Shown here: positions 4,399 through 48,482 of the stretch, in pieces
Position numbering within the stretch: position 1 is the stretch's first letter
Layout of the letters: each line of letters opens with the position of its first letter
DNA from: the human T2T-CHM13v2.0 reference genome, Homo sapiens
Direction: 5' to 3' (one strand)
Assembly: GCF_009914755.1 (NCBI RefSeq)
Contig: NC_060936.1
Length of the DNA: 64,000 bases
Translations under genes and position numbers: made by a program
Notes under the pieces: model-generated
Database searches by the model: none
The model's input: only the letters and a program-made list of their open reading frames with translations
Told to the model about the DNA's origin: nothing

Positions 4399-4980
4399 TG
4401 AAGGGAAAAACATTGAAAGAAATCTTTACTATTTTAGCTGGATTCTCCACCCCACATCCCACTTTTAAGAAGACCTGAAAAACTCTTACACTGTTGTTTT
4501 AGTTAGACTTGCTCCCCACTTGTCACTTGTAAGAAGAATCAAAGTCCAAATTCCTAAGAAATACTGAAAATGGAATAGGAAACAAAAACATCTGATCTGG
4601 AAATAAAAACTGGCAATATAATAATATCCGTTGTTTCTCTTTAGAGAGTAAATCAGCTCCAAAAATTTGCTGTGGCATATAAAAAGCAAGCCCAAATATT
4701 ACATCAGGCTGTTTAATCGACTTAGCTCCTAAATGAATATATGAATAAGTTTATTTCTTTTGACATAAACAGAATGCACAAGGACCAACTGTTAGACATA
4801 GTCTTAGGAGTGATGATGGGGAACCTCAGTACAAGCTGCGTGGTAGACAACTAGGCATTGATGTCTGCTGAAATGCTGAAATGGATTCAGTAATGTTACA
4901 ATGTTAGAAGTTCTAGAGAATTGTTCAATAAATGGTTAAAGATCAAAATAGGACCCTGGGGGAAAATGGTCTTTTGCATC

Positions 4981-5272
4981 TTTTTTTTTTTTTTGAAGAG
5001 TCTTGCTCTGTCACCCAGGCTGGAGTGCAGTAGTGCTATCATAGCTCACTGCAGCTTCCATCTTCTGGATTCTAGCAGTCCTCCCACCTCAGCCTCCTGA
5101 GTAGCTGGGACTATAGGTACGTGCCACCATGCCCAGCTTTTTTTTTCCTTTTTCTAGAGACAGCATTTCGCTTTGTTGGCTCGGCTGGTCTTGAACTCCT
5201 GGGCTCAAGCAATCCTCCCACCTCAGCCTCCCAAAGTGCTGGGATTACAGGTGTGAGCCCCTGTGCCTGGCC
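4981..5272 (-). mobile_element. AluJ
   Basis: Reverse diverged Alu. Confidence 0.9.
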
Positions 5273-5782
5273 CTTTTACACATTTTTTGACTCATAAGAA
5301 CTAATTTTTTTTTTTCTGGGATAAATTCCTGCTAAAGTTTCAAATAGGTTTCATTTTTCCAGTAAAAATGCACAAAACAAATGGGATCAAGGCTATGGCT
5401 TTAGGAGATTGCTTGTCCATCACCACTAAGTCCTGCAAATTACCACTGACAATTCTGTTGGAAGTTGAGTTAGTGGATCCTGTTTTTTTTCACTCCTCTA
5501 TGAAAAAATTGTGTTTTTATGAACGAGGTCAGGAGGTCCATGCTTGAAAATTACCAAGTGTTGCATTAGGTTAGAGCTTCTCTTAAGAAAGCTTAAAACT
5601 CTTTCTTTAGAAAGAACATCTATTAATACAGTTTCTAGTTATGAGGGCCAAGGTCTAAAGGACAAGCCAAAAGAATGACAGAGGAAGGGGATTTAGGGCT
5701 AACAGGTGGTCCCCAGACATATTGGCTGAAAGGCAGTTCACAGCTAAAGTGTCATATGTGGGTGTTACTGTGCTCCTCATCC

Positions 5783-5951
5783 ATGCTCTCTGTAGCGAGT
5801 CATTCTGGAACACTCCTGGTTCTCGCTATGGCCATAAGAAGTGACTTTCATGAGACCTTCAGAAGAATAGCCCGGCTCTTTTACTGGTTCCCCAAATCAC
5901 TGACCTGCTCAAAGAATCGGAAATCCAAGCTGCTCTGGAGCCAAGGTGGGG
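5783..5951 (+). CDS. RASSF3: Candidate distal first coding exon of a long RASSF3 isoform (MLSVASHSGTLLVLAMAIRSDFHETFRRIARLFYWFPKSLTCSKNRKSKLLWSQGG)
   Basis: Repeat-free open frame; in-frame ATGs at 5783 and 5828 (strong Kozak GCTATGG); consensus donor G|GTAAGT at 5952; ends in phase 1, joining in frame to exon 40169. Confidence 0.6.
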
Positions 5952-6854
5952 GTAAGTTACCTCAGGCTAATGCCTTATTTCAAATCCGTTTTTTTTTGTG
6001 TGTGTGTTACATTTTAAAATGGAGCCTCCCTCGCATGGGCAGGGAGGAGTGGGAAAGAAAAGTCTTGAAGCCTTTAAAAGGTATTCCGCTTGGTCATCTG
6101 GAGGGAAAATTGAGAGAAAATAAAATTAAGCATTTTGAGGCTGATGTATTAGAAGCCATGAACATTGTTACAATCCAATTGTATGCTTTTTAGGCATTTT
6201 GATTCCGAAAAGTTGACTAAAGAGAGATGGAGAATGTTTAGTATTTAAAAACAACAAAAACAGCTCTTATTCTCAGGGACTCTTAACTTGTCTTAGTACT
6301 AAAACATCTTAGAATAAACAGAACACAAAAAATAAGTCACAGTGAGTTCCCCTCCTTTCCATAGAAAACTAAAAAGGTCAGTGGGCCTTAAATCTCTTTT
6401 ATTTGGGTCAGTTTATGCATCATATTTTAGGTATTTATTGATGTGAGAATTTAAAGCACCTTATATTTGCTACCATATAAAGCCCTGCCTTTTCTGTCCA
6501 GTCCTGCCTGACTGGAATATGCAAGGGTCAGAGGAGAGGGGGTTAAAGGGAGTAGATGACCCCTCCAAGTCTGGTATCTGAAGTTCCTGCAGGAGCCCAG
6601 CTTTCACCTTCATACTCTGCAGCACTGGTTGTACTACTCACACTACTGTAAGCCAATTCTCTCACTTCATAATGTTTCATCTTGCAACTGAATCAAAATT
6701 CTCATTATGTTTCTTTCACACCCATGTAGCTCAGAATTTTATGTAAGTGCTTAACAATTACTTAAGATGTATTATGTGTTTGATACATTATCAAACATAA
6801 TCTGATGATGTGCTAGATTATCCAGTGCCAGATCCTCCTTTAAAAACAAGTGAC

Positions 6855-38530: not shown

Positions 38531-38788
38531 TTGTGGACATGTGGGTTTCAGGCAGTCCCATCACTCATAGCCCATAGAATGGTCTTTTTATCTCGATGGC
38601 TTACATACGTATCTTCAGAGAACTGAGTTCAGATTCATTCATTGCCATTGCTTCTCTCCTTACTGCCTGTTTTATCTGAAGCTTAACCCTGTGTTATAAT
38701 TTTAGAAACAATGAGATAGTTGGCAGGCTAATGGCTTCATTTTAAGTAGTATCTGATGTGAAGTTTACAACTGAAGCCAATTGGAGTT
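38531..38788 (+). repeat. Composite local duplicate of 40311-40500 plus 43846-43913
   Basis: Manual alignment; about 22 differences in 190 nt for the first part. Confidence 0.9.
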
Positions 38789-39997: not shown

Positions 39998-40168
39998 TTA
40001 AATGGCTCTGCCTTGTGAACAGATGGGCCCCACACAAACTCATTTTTATTATTCCAGGTTGAATGCTGGCTTTTTGAGCAGGGGAGGGGGTTCAATTTCC
40101 CTTGGCCTGTTGGATGAACAGAGAACGACACAGACCTAACTGGGAACCTAACGTGCTTTCTCTTTCAG

Positions 40169-40293
40169 AGGGTAAATATATATGTCATGCTCACTGCCGA
40201 GACCTGGTACATCTGGATTATCCACAAAATGGGAACGTATCAAGCTGCATGCCGACTTCTGAAGTAAGATATTCAATCAAAAAGAACAGTCAG
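40169..40293 (+). CDS. RASSF3: RASSF3 upstream exon encoding a degenerate second half of a C1 zinc finger ((E)GKYICHAHCRDLVHLDYPQNGNVSSCMPTSEVRYSIKKNSQ)
   Basis: CCTAAC branch points (40135, 40147), pyrimidine tract and AG acceptor (40167-68), donor CAG|GTAGGC (40294), 125 nt open. Peptide aligns with RASSF1A CKFTCHYRCRALVCLDC and RASSF5 CKFTCHPECRSLIQLDC. Confidence 0.75.
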
Positions 40294-40681
40294 GTAGGCA
40301 CTATTGGTGCTTGTGGACATCGTGCGTTTCGGTCACTCCCATCACTCATACCCCATAGAATGGTCTTTTTATCTCCATGGCTTACGTATGTATCTTCAGA
40401 GGATCGAGCTCAGGTTCATTCATTGCCATTGCTTCTCTCCTTGCCGCCTGTTGCATCTGAAGCTTAATCTTGGGTTATAATTTTAGAAACAATAAGATAG
40501 AGTATATCAGTAGTTTTATCCAACAGATTTGTCATAAGATATGAGGCTTTCATCTGCTTGATTACTTGCCACATTCAGGATGCAATCTTGTTAACAGACA
40601 TACTTCCTGCTGCGGAAAATAGGACATGAACTGTAAATGTGTGTTGACTTTTTTTTTAATCCGATGAAGAGCCTCAGCGTG

Positions 40682-40935: not shown

Positions 40936-41584
40936 AGAACCTGAGCATGAACACTGTGCTGGGGAAATCTGTCAGGTTTTACTGGTTAAAGCAAAGATCT
41001 TCAACTGGTAGAACTAGTAGATCCTCAACCTGGTTTCAGCCAGCACATCCATTCTCACTCTATTCTCCTGGTTTGCTGAGAGACCAGAAGGGAAGGGGTA
41101 CAGCTGGCAGTGATGCCTGCTCCTCTGCAGACTCAACTATAGCATCCCCTCTCCTGACACATCAAGGTTCTTCTTAAAAGATAGGCTATTTTTTCGGCCA
41201 AGCACAGTGACTCATGCCTGTAATCCCAACACTTTGGGAGGCCGAGGTGGGTGGATTGCTTAAGGCCAGGAATTCAAGACCAGCCTGAGCAACATGGCAA
41301 AACCTCATCTCTACAAAAACTACAAAAATTAATAGGGCATGGTGGTGAGAGGTGACAGCATGCTGGCAGCCCTCGCTCGCTCTTGGCGCCTCCTCGGCCT
41401 CGGTGCCCACTCTGGCCCCACTTGAAGAGCCCTTCAGCCCGCCGCTGCACTGTGGGAGCCCCTTCCTGGGATGGCCGAGGCCGGAGGCGGCTCCCTCAGT
41501 CTGCAGGGAGGTGTGGAGGGAGAGGCACGGGCGGGAACCGGGGCTGCGCGCCAGCTAGATAGAGTTCCGGGTGGGCGTGGGCTT

Positions 41585-41958
41585 GGCGGGCCCCCGCACT
41601 TGGAGTGGCGGGCCCCCGCACTTGGAGTGGCGGGCCCCCGCACTTGGAGTGGCGGGCCCCCGCACTTGGAGTGGCGGGCCCCCGCACTTGGAGTGGCGGG
41701 CCCCCGCACTTGGAGTGGCGGGCCCCCGCACTTGGAGTGGCGGGCCCCCGCACTTGGAGTGGCGGGCCCCCGCACTTGGAGTGGCGGGCCCCCGCACTTG
41801 GAGTGGCGGGCCCCCGCACTTGGAGTGGCGGGCCCCCGCACTTGGAGTGGCGGGCCCCCGCACTTGGAGTGGCGGGCCCCCGCACTTGGAGTGGCGGGCC
41901 CCCGCACTTGGAGTGGCGGGCCCCCGCACTTGGAGTGGCGGGCCCCCGCACTTGGAGT
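41585..41958. repeat. Perfect tandem repeat, 17 x 22 bp (GGCGGGCCCCCGCACTTGGAGT)
   Basis: 374 bp = 17 identical units. Confidence 0.97.
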
Positions 41959-42140
41959 GGCCGGCCGGCGCCGCCCGCCCGGGCAGTGAGGGGCTTAGCA
42001 CCCGGGCTAGCAGCTGCGGAGGGTGCTTTGGGTCCCACAGCAGTGCCGGCCCACCAGCGCTGCGCTCGATTTCTCGCCGGGCCTTAGCTGCCTCCCCACG
42101 GGGCAGGGCTCGGGACCTGCAGCCAGCCATGCCTGAGTTT

Positions 42141-42360
42141 CCCGCCCCGCTCCCCGCCCGCCCGCCCCCCCGCTCCCCGCCTGCCCGCCCCCCCGCTCCC
42201 CGCCTGCCCCCCCGCTGCCCGCCTGCCCCCCCGCTGCCCGCCCCCCGCTCCCCACCCGCCCGCCCACCCCCCACTCCCCCACTCCCCCACACCCTCCCCC
42301 CGCCGCCCCCCGCTCTCCCCCGCCCCCCTCCCGCCCCCCCTCCCCTCCCGCCCCCCGCCG
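42141..42360. repeat. Expanded C-rich low-complexity tract (G4-forming on the - strand)
   Basis: About 220 nt of CCCG/CCCC runs inside LTR12C. Confidence 0.9.
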
Positions 42361-42584
42361 TGGGCTCCTGCACGGCCCGAGCCTCCCCGACAAGCCCCAC
42401 CCCCTGTTCCATGGCACCCGGTCCCATCCACTGCCCAAGGGCTGAGGAGTGCGGGCGCACGGCGCGGGACTGGCAGGTGGCTCCGCCTGCGCCCCTAGTG
42501 CGCGATCCACTGGGTGAAGCCTGCTGGGCTCCTGAGTCTAGTGAGGACTTGGAGAACCTTTATGTTTAGCTAAGGGATTGTGAA

Positions 42585-42937
42585 TACACTAATTGGCTCT
42601 CAGTATCTAGCTCAAGGTTTGTAAATGCACCAATCAGCACTCTGGGTCTAGCTCAGGCTTTGTAAATACACCAATCAGCACTCTGTACCTAGCTAATCTA
42701 GTGGGGACATGGAGAACTTTTGTGTCTATCTCAGGGATTGTAAATGCACCAATCAGCAGCCTCTCAAAACGGACCAATCAGCTCTCTGTAAAACAGACCA
42801 ATTGGCTCTCTGTAAAATGGACCAATCAGCAGGATGTGGGTGGGGCCAGATAAGAGAATAAAGCAGGCTGCCAGAGCACGCCTTGGCACCTCGGTGGGGG
42901 TCCCGTTCCGCACAGTTCTTTAGGTGTTTGCAATAAA
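42585..42937 (+). promoter_or_regulatory. LTR12 promoter: CCAAT array, GATAAG (42849), AATAAA TATA-like box (42857), LTR poly(A) signal (42932)
   Basis: Repeated ACCAATCAG motifs; standard ERV9 LTR U3-R layout. Confidence 0.75.
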
Positions 42938-48150: not shown

Positions 48151-48482
48151 GAATTTTTAAATGTTGAAAGCTAATCAGAGGCCACAAAGTCATTCTTAAA
48201 GTCATTGTGCACTTTGCTTCCTTTGTTGTATGTTTGTTTCCTTTGTAACTGATTTACTACTTTACACACTCAGATTTTTAATTATAGCAGCAATTACTAG
48301 ATTCAATGACATAAAGTTACCATTTCTGTCAGTAAAGATTCAATACCAGCTAATTTCACACAGTTCAATTTCACACCTGGGGAATTAATTATTCTTAATC
48401 ATTAGGAGTCAATGGTAAAACTTTCTGATGAAAGCACCTGTAGCAAGGCCTCTACCAAGCTCCCCTCCTGTGGGGGGTGTTG

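What the first reader, a model, noticed from the sequence alone, without database searches (positions are those of the whole stretch)
40169..40293. C1 zinc-finger half-exon with two Cys ligands lost by single-base changes
Seen: EGKYICHAHCRDLVHLDY fits the C1 tail pattern C-x4-H-x2-C-x7-C with exact spacing, but the first Cys is GGT (Gly, 40171-73) and the last is TAT (Tyr, 40219-21), each one base from TGT. Splice signals and reading frame are intact. Established: RASSF1A's second exon encodes the same half (CKFTCHYRCRALVCLDC). Inference: zinc binding has been lost while the exon persists, i.e. domain-level pseudogenisation or repurposing.
Basis: partly seen in the sequence, partly recalled or inferred. 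Interest (0 to 1): 0.8.

Follow-up and report, generated by a model that had tools for sequence, protein, structure and literature searches.

The report
Vestigial half zinc-finger exon of RASSF3
This small alternative exon of the human RASSF3 gene is the leftover second half of a C1 zinc finger that fish, frogs, turtles and birds still have intact; mammals have lost two zinc-binding cysteines and the exon for the other half, but still keep part of the peptide conserved.

Summary
Exon 40169-40293 (+) has intact AG/GT splice sites and encodes GKYICHAHCRDLVHLDY... GGT (40171-73) and TAT (40219-21) sit where C1 ligands 5 and 8 belong.

It is the RASSF3 counterpart of RASSF1 exon 2-alpha-beta and the matching RASSF5 exon, with the same intron phase and the same start two bases before the ligand-5 codon.

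- **Ancestral state:** all 20 non-mammalian RASSF3 proteins recovered (6 bird, 3 turtle, 3 squamate, 5 frog, 3 fish) have Cys at both positions. Eleven of them carry a complete C1 finger from a separate GC-rich first exon (1-alpha type).
- **Mammalian state:** all 22 mammal-type proteins (12 named boreoeutherian taxa plus 8 unnamed ORFs) have Gly and Tyr.
- **Missing partner exon:** no 1-alpha exon is detectable in the human window, although the same HMM finds human RASSF1 exon 1-alpha at 5e-8.
- **How the exon is used:** it is spliced to a different first exon conserved across tetrapods (1-beta type, ATG at 5828). No C1 fold can form in this isoform.
- **Conservation:** the first 23 codons stay about 90% identical among eutherians. 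The next 19 codons are 55% identical and the intron flanks 28-47%.

This is an instructive case of domain decay, not a surprise.

The parts
40169..40293 (+). RASSF3 alternative exon (125 nt). It is the counterpart of RASSF1 exon 2-alpha-beta and encodes the relic second half of a C1 zinc finger plus a variable linker.
   Evidence: It shares phase and start point with the RASSF5 exon (L014 2369-2490, 122 nt) and the RASSF1 exon (L013 6135-6029, 107 nt).
40167..40168 (+). Splice acceptor AG
40294..40295 (+). Splice donor GT
40171..40173 (+). GGT (Gly) at C1 ligand place 5. It is Cys in all 20 non-mammalian RASSF3 proteins, in RASSF1 (TGC) and in RASSF5 (TGT).
40186..40188 (+). CAT (His), C1 ligand place 6, retained
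   Evidence: It is nearly invariant; the exceptions are Suricata (Leu) and Candoia (Asp).
40195..40197 (+). TGC (Cys), C1 ligand place 7, retained
   Evidence: invariant C66 of P0003
40219..40221 (+). TAT (Tyr) at C1 ligand place 8, ancestrally Cys
40168..40236 (+). Conserved part '2a' (EGKYICHxxCRDLVHLDYPQNGx, 23 codons; the first codon is completed by the last base of the upstream exon)
   Evidence: mean pairwise identity 0.90 among 10 eutherians; 158 of 184 positions identical in 8 unnamed ORFs.
40237..40293 (+). Variable part '2b' (19 codons). It acts as a linker, with length and frame kept.
   Evidence: identity 0.55, 16 of 19 columns variable; 78 of 152 identical. There are no gaps inside the exon in the alignments.
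5813..5951 (+). Alternative first exon (1-beta type) spliced to the exon above, with conserved start ATG at 5828-5830 (MAIRSDFHETFRRIARLFYWFPKSL...). A longer annotated form starts at 5586.
   Evidence: Bird protein P0025 residues 1-43 align to 5828-5956 at 6.6e-12. The exon is present in frog, snake, birds and eutherians.
5952..5953 (+). Donor GT of the first exon. The last exon base (g at 5951) starts the split codon.

Best explanation
The exon is the human orthologue of the exon that encodes the second half (ligands 5-8) of the C1 zinc finger in the RASSF1/RASSF3/RASSF5 paralogue group. Ancestral vertebrate RASSF3 made an 'A-type' isoform: exon 1-alpha (ligands 1-4) plus this exon gave a complete C1 finger. 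From at least the tetrapod ancestor it also made a 'B-type' isoform, in which a different first exon (1-beta type, MAIR...FRRIARLFYWFPKSL) is spliced to this same exon and gives only a half finger. On the mammalian stem, before the boreoeutherian radiation, exon 1-alpha was lost and ligands 5 and 8 changed (TGT to GGT, TGT to TAT). Both steps are shown; their order is not known. I infer that once the exon served only the B-type isoform, nothing selected for the zinc ligands. In human the exon is used only from the upstream promoter near 5586/5813. The predicted products are a 284- or 299-aa protein whose about 83-residue N-terminus replaces the canonical 37-residue one, upstream of the shared RA and SARAH domains. 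The relic cannot fold as a C1 domain or bind zinc as one. That conclusion is an inference from the missing ligands. The segment EGKYICHxxCRDLVHLDYPQNGK is still under purifying selection, so it most likely acts as a zinc-independent peptide, either a contact surface or a structured linker. The following 19 residues are a freely evolving spacer kept only in frame.
For: Orthology and paralogy: the peptide occurs in RASSF3 isoforms of 12 named mammals. Turtle, fish and bird RASSF3 proteins align to the exon at 1.5e-7 to 9.7e-7. The three human paralogue exons all begin with 2 nt of a split codon followed directly by the ligand-5 codon, and all have lengths of 2 mod 3 (125, 122 and 107 nt).

Ancestral Cys: 20 of 20 non-mammals have Cys at both places and 22 of 22 mammal-type sequences have Gly and Tyr.

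Intact C1 elsewhere: Pfam C1_1 scores above its cutoff in two turtles (28.7 and 27.8 bits against 26.5) and below it in three fish (16.5-22.2). PF00130 is precomputed for a third turtle, a bird and four frogs. The turtle C1 matches the solved Nore1 C1 domains 2fnf and 1rfh at 1.3e-15 and 1.9e-13, with every ligand aligned.

Loss of exon 1-alpha in human: an HMM built from 11 non-mammalian 1-alpha segments scores at best E 0.25 (9.2 bits) over the six-frame window. The same HMM finds human RASSF1 exon 1-alpha at 5.4e-8. tblastn gives the same picture. None of the 16 hits to the turtle C1 region is a mammal.

Continued constraint: mean pairwise identity among 10 eutherians is 0.865 for 1-beta, 0.90 for 2a, 0.55 for 2b and 0.94 for the rest of the protein. 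In 8 unnamed ORFs that read through the introns, identity to human is 158/184 in 2a, 78/152 in 2b, 130/279 in the upstream intron and 94/337 in the downstream intron. Gaps occur only outside the exon.

Precedent: the review PMC2586335 (passages read) describes RASSF1A as 1-alpha plus 2-alpha-beta carrying the C1 domain, and RASSF1B as 1-beta plus the same 2-alpha-beta.
Against: No orthologous DNA from other species was available, so dN/dS was not measured. Conservation of 2a could be partly at the nucleotide level, for example for splicing or regulatory signals. The proteins compared are mostly automatic gene models and ORFs found by similarity, which favours intact, similar copies. There are no data for marsupials, monotremes, afrotherians, xenarthrans or rodents: only canonical isoforms of these groups were recovered. 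The exon may therefore be absent or decayed in some mammals, and the time of the changes is bracketed only loosely. I saw no expression, translation or population data for the human isoform. Birds with both Cys intact also give no Pfam C1_1 hit, so failure of the HMM on the human peptide is not itself evidence of decay. The AlphaFold model was uninformative.
Confidence: 0.8

Rival explanations
1. Dead relic. The exon and its isoform are transcriptional or annotation noise in mammals, evolving neutrally. The apparent conservation comes from recovering only sequences that still resemble the query.
For: Part 2b is about as diverged as the upstream intron (78/152 against 130/279). No expression evidence was seen. 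Rodent, afrotherian, xenarthran and marsupial entries are all canonical isoforms. One primate model (P0024) omits the exon.
Against: Part 2a is 86-90% identical against 28-47% in the flanks of the very same contigs, and those ORFs were not selected for downstream frame. There are no indels or stops in the exon in 22 sequences. The partner exon 1-beta is conserved from frog to human, including its ATG.
Confidence: 0.1
2. The conservation is non-coding. The first about 70 bases are kept as a regulatory or splicing element (enhancer or exonic splicing signals for the upstream-promoter transcripts), and the peptide itself is irrelevant.
For: Protein comparisons alone cannot separate nucleotide-level from amino-acid-level constraint. 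The exon lies in a long intergenic/intronic stretch with annotated regulatory features nearby (the hub table lists an enhancer at 48415-48464).
Against: The conserved block coincides exactly with the part that was structured in the ancestral domain. It ends inside the exon, not at a splice site. The reading frame and exon length are kept in all sequences. CRDLVHLD is kept from sturgeon (CRDLVTLD) to human, as expected for protein-level constraint.
Confidence: 0.07
3. The relic still binds metal in a new way. The invariant Cys62, His63, Cys66 and His71 of the 299-aa isoform (C-H-x2-C-x4-H) form a small new zinc site.
For: C62 and C66 are invariant, H63 is nearly invariant and H71 is conserved in tetrapods in the 25-sequence alignment, although the classical partners are gone.
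Against: The same residues are equally conserved in species with the intact finger, so their retention may be simple inheritance. Suricata has Leu at the His63 place. The spacing matches no zinc-knuckle motif that I know of (recalled). No structural support was obtained.
Confidence: 0.03

Closest known systems
RASSF1 exon 2-alpha-beta and the RASSF1A / RASSF1B isoform pair
   Same: The position in the gene and the intron phase are the same, and both exons begin 2 nt before the ligand-5 codon. Both encode ligands 5-8 of the C1 finger. Both are used with two alternative first exons, one supplying the first half of the finger and one not (PMC2586335, passages read; for RASSF3).
   Different: RASSF1 keeps all four ligands (CKFTCHYRCRALVCLDC) and keeps exon 1-alpha. 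According to the review, RASSF1B encodes only the RA and SARAH domains, whereas the RASSF3 1-beta exon carries a conserved ATG and ORF. No 1-beta-like peptide was found in the RASSF1 locus (best E 0.028, in an Alu-like stretch).
RASSF5 / Nore1A C1 domain (PDB 2fnf, 1rfh)
   Same: The turtle RASSF3 C1 matches it at 1.3e-15 with all eight ligands aligned. The human RASSF5 exon has the same phase and the same ...CAG|gt end.
   Different: Human RASSF3 has 2 of the 4 ligands in this exon and none of the first four. Reviews list only RASSF1 and RASSF5 as C1-bearing RASSF proteins in human (PMC7915224, passages read).
Atypical (non-lipid-binding) C1 domains, e.g. Vav1
   Same: They derive from the same fold family. 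Nore1/RASSF-type C1 domains are usually counted among the atypical ones (recalled).
   Different: Atypical C1 domains still have the full HX12CX2CXnCX2CX4HX2CX7C motif (PMC8178753, passages read). The human RASSF3 relic does not.

Membership tests
C1 domain (Pfam PF00130, C1_1) | Eight zinc ligands with the spacing HX12CX2CX13-14CX2CX4HX2CX7C (PMC4477140 and PMC8178753, passages read) | tested here: not met
   The human isoform has only ligands 6 (His) and 7 (Cys). Ligands 5 and 8 are Gly and Tyr. Ligands 1-4 are absent because the first exon is of another kind.
C1 domain (Pfam PF00130, C1_1) | Profile HMM match at or above the gathering score (26.5 bits) | tested here: not met
   There was no C1_1 match for the exon peptide at E up to 10, nor for the 299-aa human isoform at E up to 1. 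Turtle orthologues pass (28.7 and 27.8 bits).
C1 domain (Pfam PF00130, C1_1) | Descent from a C1-encoding sequence | tested here: met
   The exon is orthologous to the exon encoding ligands 5-8 in turtle, bird, frog and fish RASSF3, and paralogous to the RASSF1 and RASSF5 exons with the same phase.
C1 domain (Pfam PF00130, C1_1) | Binds two zinc ions and adopts the C1 fold | not testable with these tools
   The AlphaFold model had mean pLDDT 36 and says nothing. Loss of zinc binding is inferred from the missing ligands.
RASSF1/3/5 'second C1 exon' (2-alpha-beta type) | The exon starts with 2 nt of a split codon directly before the ligand-5 codon, and its length is 2 mod 3 | tested here: met
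   RASSF3 is 125 nt, RASSF5 122 nt and RASSF1 107 nt.
RASSF1/3/5 'second C1 exon' (2-alpha-beta type) | Spliced in frame to the first exon shared with the short (C-type) isoform | tested here: met
   P0003 reads ...KKNSQ|DVEKEKETHSYLSK.... The DVEKE exon was found at C12:64663702-64663818, and canonical isoforms share it (P0045 and P0065).
RASSF1/3/5 'second C1 exon' (2-alpha-beta type) | A partner exon 1-alpha encoding ligands 1-4 is present in the locus | tested here: not met
   The best window hit to an HMM of 11 RASSF3 1-alpha segments is E 0.25. The positive control (human RASSF1) scores 5.4e-8. tblastn found nothing below E about 5.

The most novel reading that the evidence does not exclude
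After losing its zinc ligands and its partner exon, the 23-residue relic (EGKYICHxxCRDLVHLDYPQNGK), together with the tetrapod-conserved 1-beta peptide, has been kept in mammals as a new zinc-free module. For example, it may retain the intramolecular contact with the RA domain that the Nore1 C1 domain makes. That would give mammals a regulated long RASSF3 isoform that nobody has characterised.
Probability: 0.3. Interest if true: 0.55.

Novelty: new variant of a known kind. Interest (0 to 1): 0.35.

Why it matters
Textbook and review accounts say that only RASSF1 and RASSF5 carry a C1 domain and that RASSF3 resembles only their short isoforms (PMC2586335 and PMC7915224, passages read). The data here show three things.

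- RASSF3 began with the same A-, B- and C-type isoform architecture as its paralogues.
- Non-mammalian vertebrates still have a C1-bearing RASSF3.
- Mammals keep a decayed but partly constrained remnant.

This is a clean natural example of an exon shared by two isoforms being released from one constraint (the zinc ligands) while another persists. It also identifies an uncharacterised, conserved long isoform of a tumour-suppressor-family gene. Finally, it warns that functional work on non-mammalian RASSF3 need not transfer to mammals. It does not change any major concept.

Tried and rejected
1. Pfam on the 41-aa peptide alone gave 0 families at E up to 10. PDB phmmer with it gave only GDF2 at E 1.1, which is chance. 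The peptide is too short to score on its own.

2. My first idea was that the human first exon (H-x12-F-x2-S...) is a decayed first half of the finger. I rejected it. Turtles, a bird and frogs have a quite different GC-rich 1-alpha exon, while birds, a frog and a snake also have the MAIR... exon. They are two separate exons. MAFFT's juxtaposition of them is not evidence of homology.

3. I looked for a relic 1-alpha exon or its CpG island. The only strongly GC-rich block (about 41350-42500) lies downstream of the exon and is made of tandem repeats. It is not a promoter relic.

4. AlphaFold2 of the 284-aa Cebus isoform with a 17-sequence alignment gave mean pLDDT 36.4 and pTM 0.22. Even the RA domain was poor, so the model is uninformative. 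I did not use the second job.

5. The ESM Atlas search with residues 16-98 returned only RASSF3 and RASSF5 clusters at 0.76 and 0.75, below the useful range.

6. tblastn of the 1-beta peptides against the RASSF1 locus and the RASSF5 exon region gave only chance-level hits.

7. The whole-genome six-frame search with the turtle protein found the exon (E 7.3e-4) and the RASSF5 counterpart (E 0.53). It did not find even the intact RASSF1/5 1-alpha exons, so it is not a sensitive test for a relic.

8. Of four answered paper searches, looked for a RASSF3 C1 remnant and found no paper that describes one. One search was too broad to be useful. only retrieved the C1 motif.

The marsupial and monotreme state remains unknown.

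Full report
**1. What is in the sequence**

Window 40169-40293 (+) is flanked by a good acceptor (ctaac...ctttctctttcag|A) and a good donor (CAG|gtaggc). Only the frame starting at 40171 is open. It gives GKYICHAHCRDLVHLDYPQNGNVSSCMPTSEVRYSIKKNSQ; the other two frames have stops.

- The two leading bases AG complete a codon begun by the last base (g, 5951) of the annotated upstream exon, giving Glu.
- That upstream exon is open in the matching frame and contains an ATG at 5828 (MAIRSDFHETFRRIARLFYWFPKSLTCSKNRKSKLLWSQGG).

By itself the 41-aa peptide is too short for any profile. Pfam found nothing at E up to 10, and a PDB sequence search found only a chance hit.

**2. Relatives**

A search of the large protein collection with the peptide returned 20 proteins from 20 candidates, all covering 100% of it at 63-100% identity.

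- The hits included human RASSF3 isoforms of 187 and 299 aa, and RASSF3 models from primates, carnivores, bats, a whale and others.
- Eight were unnamed ORFs that read through both introns.

A second search used residues 1-135 of the 299-aa human isoform and gave 88 hits from 149 candidates. It added:

- bird, snake and frog isoforms with the same first exon at 51-58% identity;
- turtle, sturgeon, paddlefish and arapaima proteins of 340-389 aa.

A third search used the turtle C1 region and gave 16 hits from 19 candidates. It added a third turtle, a bird, four frogs, a lizard and a chimeric cobra model. None of these hits was a mammal.

**3. The ancestral state**

I tabulated the four ligand places of the exon in every protein that contains it (43 rows including the window's own peptide).

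- All 20 non-mammalian proteins (6 bird, 3 turtle, 3 squamate, 5 frog, 3 fish) have Cys at places 5 and 8, for example turtle DCRYTCHSHCRDLVHLDC.
- All 22 mammal-type proteins have Gly and Tyr. These are 14 named entries from 12 taxa (four primates, four carnivore groups, two bats, narwhal, peccary) plus 8 unnamed ORFs.
- Two lineages have lost a further ligand independently: the meerkat has His to Leu, and the boa Candoia has His to Asp.

Eleven non-mammals carry a complete finger, for example turtle HRFRLEEAVRTWCDLCCHFIFSQSLRCADCRYTCHSHCRDLVHLDC.

- Pfam C1_1 scores above its cutoff in two turtles (28.7 and 27.8 bits against 26.5), and below it in the three fish.
- The turtle region matches the solved Nore1 C1 domains 2fnf and 1rfh at 1.3e-15 and 1.9e-13, ligand for ligand.

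The C1 motif is as given in PMC4477140 and PMC8178753 (passages read). The second paper also notes that in the Vav1 C1 domain one zinc is held by the N-terminal His and the C-terminal Cys. From memory of the PKC-delta C1B structure, ligands 1, 4, 5 and 8 form one zinc site and 2, 3, 6 and 7 form the other. On that recollection the two human substitutions hit the same site.

**4. Paralogue exons**

The turtle protein found the RASSF1 and RASSF5 genes in the window's own genome. I read the corresponding exons.

| Gene | Locus coordinates | Length | Start of exon |
|---|---|---|---|
| RASSF5 | L014 2369-2490 | 122 nt | AC + TGT... |
| RASSF1 | L013 6135-6029 | 107 nt | AT + TGC AAG TTC ACC TGC CAC TAC CGC TGC... 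|
| RASSF3 | window 40169-40293 | 125 nt | AG + GGT... |

All three begin with two bases of a split codon directly before the ligand-5 codon, and all have lengths of 2 mod 3. This shared intron position and phase, together with the sequence match, establishes that the window exon is the RASSF3 version of RASSF1 exon 2-alpha-beta.

**5. Two first exons, one of them lost**

In non-mammals the exon is found behind two different first exons.

- A GC-rich exon supplies ligands 1-4 (turtles, the ibis Theristicus, four frogs, three fish).
- The MAIR...FRRIARFFYWFPKSL exon has no C1 features (five birds, a snake, the frog Nanorana).

This mirrors RASSF1A (1-alpha plus 2-alpha-beta, C1 domain) and RASSF1B (1-beta plus 2-alpha-beta), as described in PMC2586335 (passages read).

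Every mammalian protein recovered has the second kind. The window runs from the end of TBK1 to 24 kb beyond the exon, so it covers all the space in which an upstream RASSF3 exon could lie.

- tblastn with five 1-alpha-bearing proteins gave only the exon itself, plus chance hits at E of about 5 or more in the relevant query range.
- An HMM of 11 non-mammalian 1-alpha segments gave a best window score of 9.2 bits (E 0.25), in the TBK1 3' region.
- The same HMM found human RASSF1 exon 1-alpha at 30.6 bits (E 5.4e-8). tblastn controls agree.

The first half of the finger is therefore gone from the human locus, or is unrecognisable.

**6. Is the remnant still constrained?**

Mean pairwise identity among ten full-length eutherian isoforms:

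| Segment | Mean pairwise identity | Variable columns |
|---|---|---|
| 1-beta exon | 0.865 | not quoted |
| First 23 codons of this exon (2a) | 0.90 | 7 of 23 |
| Last 19 codons (2b) | 0.55 | 16 of 19 |
| Shared RA/SARAH part | 0.94 | not quoted |

The eight unnamed ORFs give an internal control, because they read through the introns. Their identity to the human translation is:

- 130/279 in the upstream intron;
- 158/184 in 2a;
- 78/152 in 2b;
- 94/337 in the downstream intron.

Alignment gaps occur only outside the exon. CRDLVHLD is unchanged from turtle to human and differs by one residue in sturgeon.

The former helix-and-ligand part of the finger is thus still under constraint, long after zinc binding became impossible, while the rest of the exon behaves as an in-frame spacer.

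Caveats:
- Without orthologous DNA I could not compute dN/dS.
- Most sequences are automatic models found by similarity.
- Rodents, afrotherians, xenarthrans, marsupials and monotremes appear only as canonical isoforms.

**7. Mechanism proposed**

Shown:
- the exon's orthology;
- ancestral Cys at both places;
- an intact C1 in non-mammal RASSF3;
- the absence of 1-alpha in human;
- use with the 1-beta-type exon;
- differential conservation within the exon.

Inferred:
- Loss of 1-alpha left the exon serving only the B-type isoform. That isoform never had a complete finger, so the ligand cysteines were no longer selected.
- The remaining conserved peptide has a zinc-independent role.

The order of the two losses is unknown. 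[quoted passage not shown] A residual contact of that kind is the most attractive function for the relic, but it is speculation.

**8. Comparison with what is known, and novelty**

The reviews I could read state that only RASSF1 and RASSF5 carry a C1 domain, and that the RASSF3 N-terminus resembles only RASSF1C and NORE1B (PMC2586335 and PMC7915224, passages). Three of the four answered searches of the held library looked for a RASSF3 C1 remnant and found no paper that describes one; one search was too broad to count for much. The fourth only retrieved the C1 motif. The library is incomplete and supplements were not consulted.

The exon itself is already annotated in predicted transcripts (hub table). 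The turtle, frog and bird C1 domains are already flagged by precomputed Pfam. So the finding is a new, degenerate variant of a known domain-and-isoform arrangement. It is evolutionarily neat and of moderate interest.

**9. Things that did not help**

The AlphaFold model was poor (pLDDT 36). The Atlas search was uninformative. A GC-rich block downstream turned out to be tandem repeats.

Noticed in passing
window 40311-40500 and 38531-38719: A 190-bp stretch of the intron just downstream of the exon is duplicated 1.8 kb upstream at 88% identity. The exon itself is not part of the duplicate, and Alu-like repeats lie between the copies. One unnamed ORF (P0021) also matched both copies.
   Followed up: partly
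window 41350-42830: There is a block with 70-80% G+C. It holds a near-perfect 22-bp tandem array (41584-41966, 17.4 copies, 99% matches), a degenerate C-rich repeat (42141-42359), and 41-bp and 24-bp repeats containing CCAATCAGC (42567-42830). It looks like an LTR12-type retroviral LTR with a VNTR; that name is recalled and was not tested. It is not a CpG-island promoter relic of RASSF3.
   Followed up: partly
outside the window (RASSF3 RA-domain exons; alignment A1): All ten eutherian RASSF3 proteins lack an 8-residue segment (ETAFYLPx) just before the NTLHISS strand, and a 2-residue VM after HETGE. Birds, reptiles and frogs have both; of the two fish aligned, both have the 8-residue segment and one has the VM. 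This is a second mammal-specific change in the same protein.
   Followed up: no
window 5586-5951 (+) and 4738-6097 (-): The conserved 1-beta-type first exon of RASSF3 lies wholly inside the last exon of the antisense lncRNA LOC105369803 (hub table). The region is AT-rich and has no CpG island. An unnamed carnivore-like ORF (P0033) shows the region is alignable well upstream of the ATG.
   Followed up: no
proteins P0017 (Suricata) and P0030 (Candoia): There are independent extra losses of the His ligand: His to Leu in the meerkat and His to Asp in a boa that still has both Cys. This suggests relaxed constraint on the ligands wherever only the half-finger isoform is modelled.
   Followed up: no
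proteins P0108 (Naja naja) and P0024 (Rhinopithecus): These look like gene-model artefacts. The cobra entry fuses the exon peptide to a retroviral Gag-like protein (PF02093). The snub-nosed monkey model joins the first exon directly to the DVEKE exon without this exon, which by my count should shift the frame.
   Followed up: no
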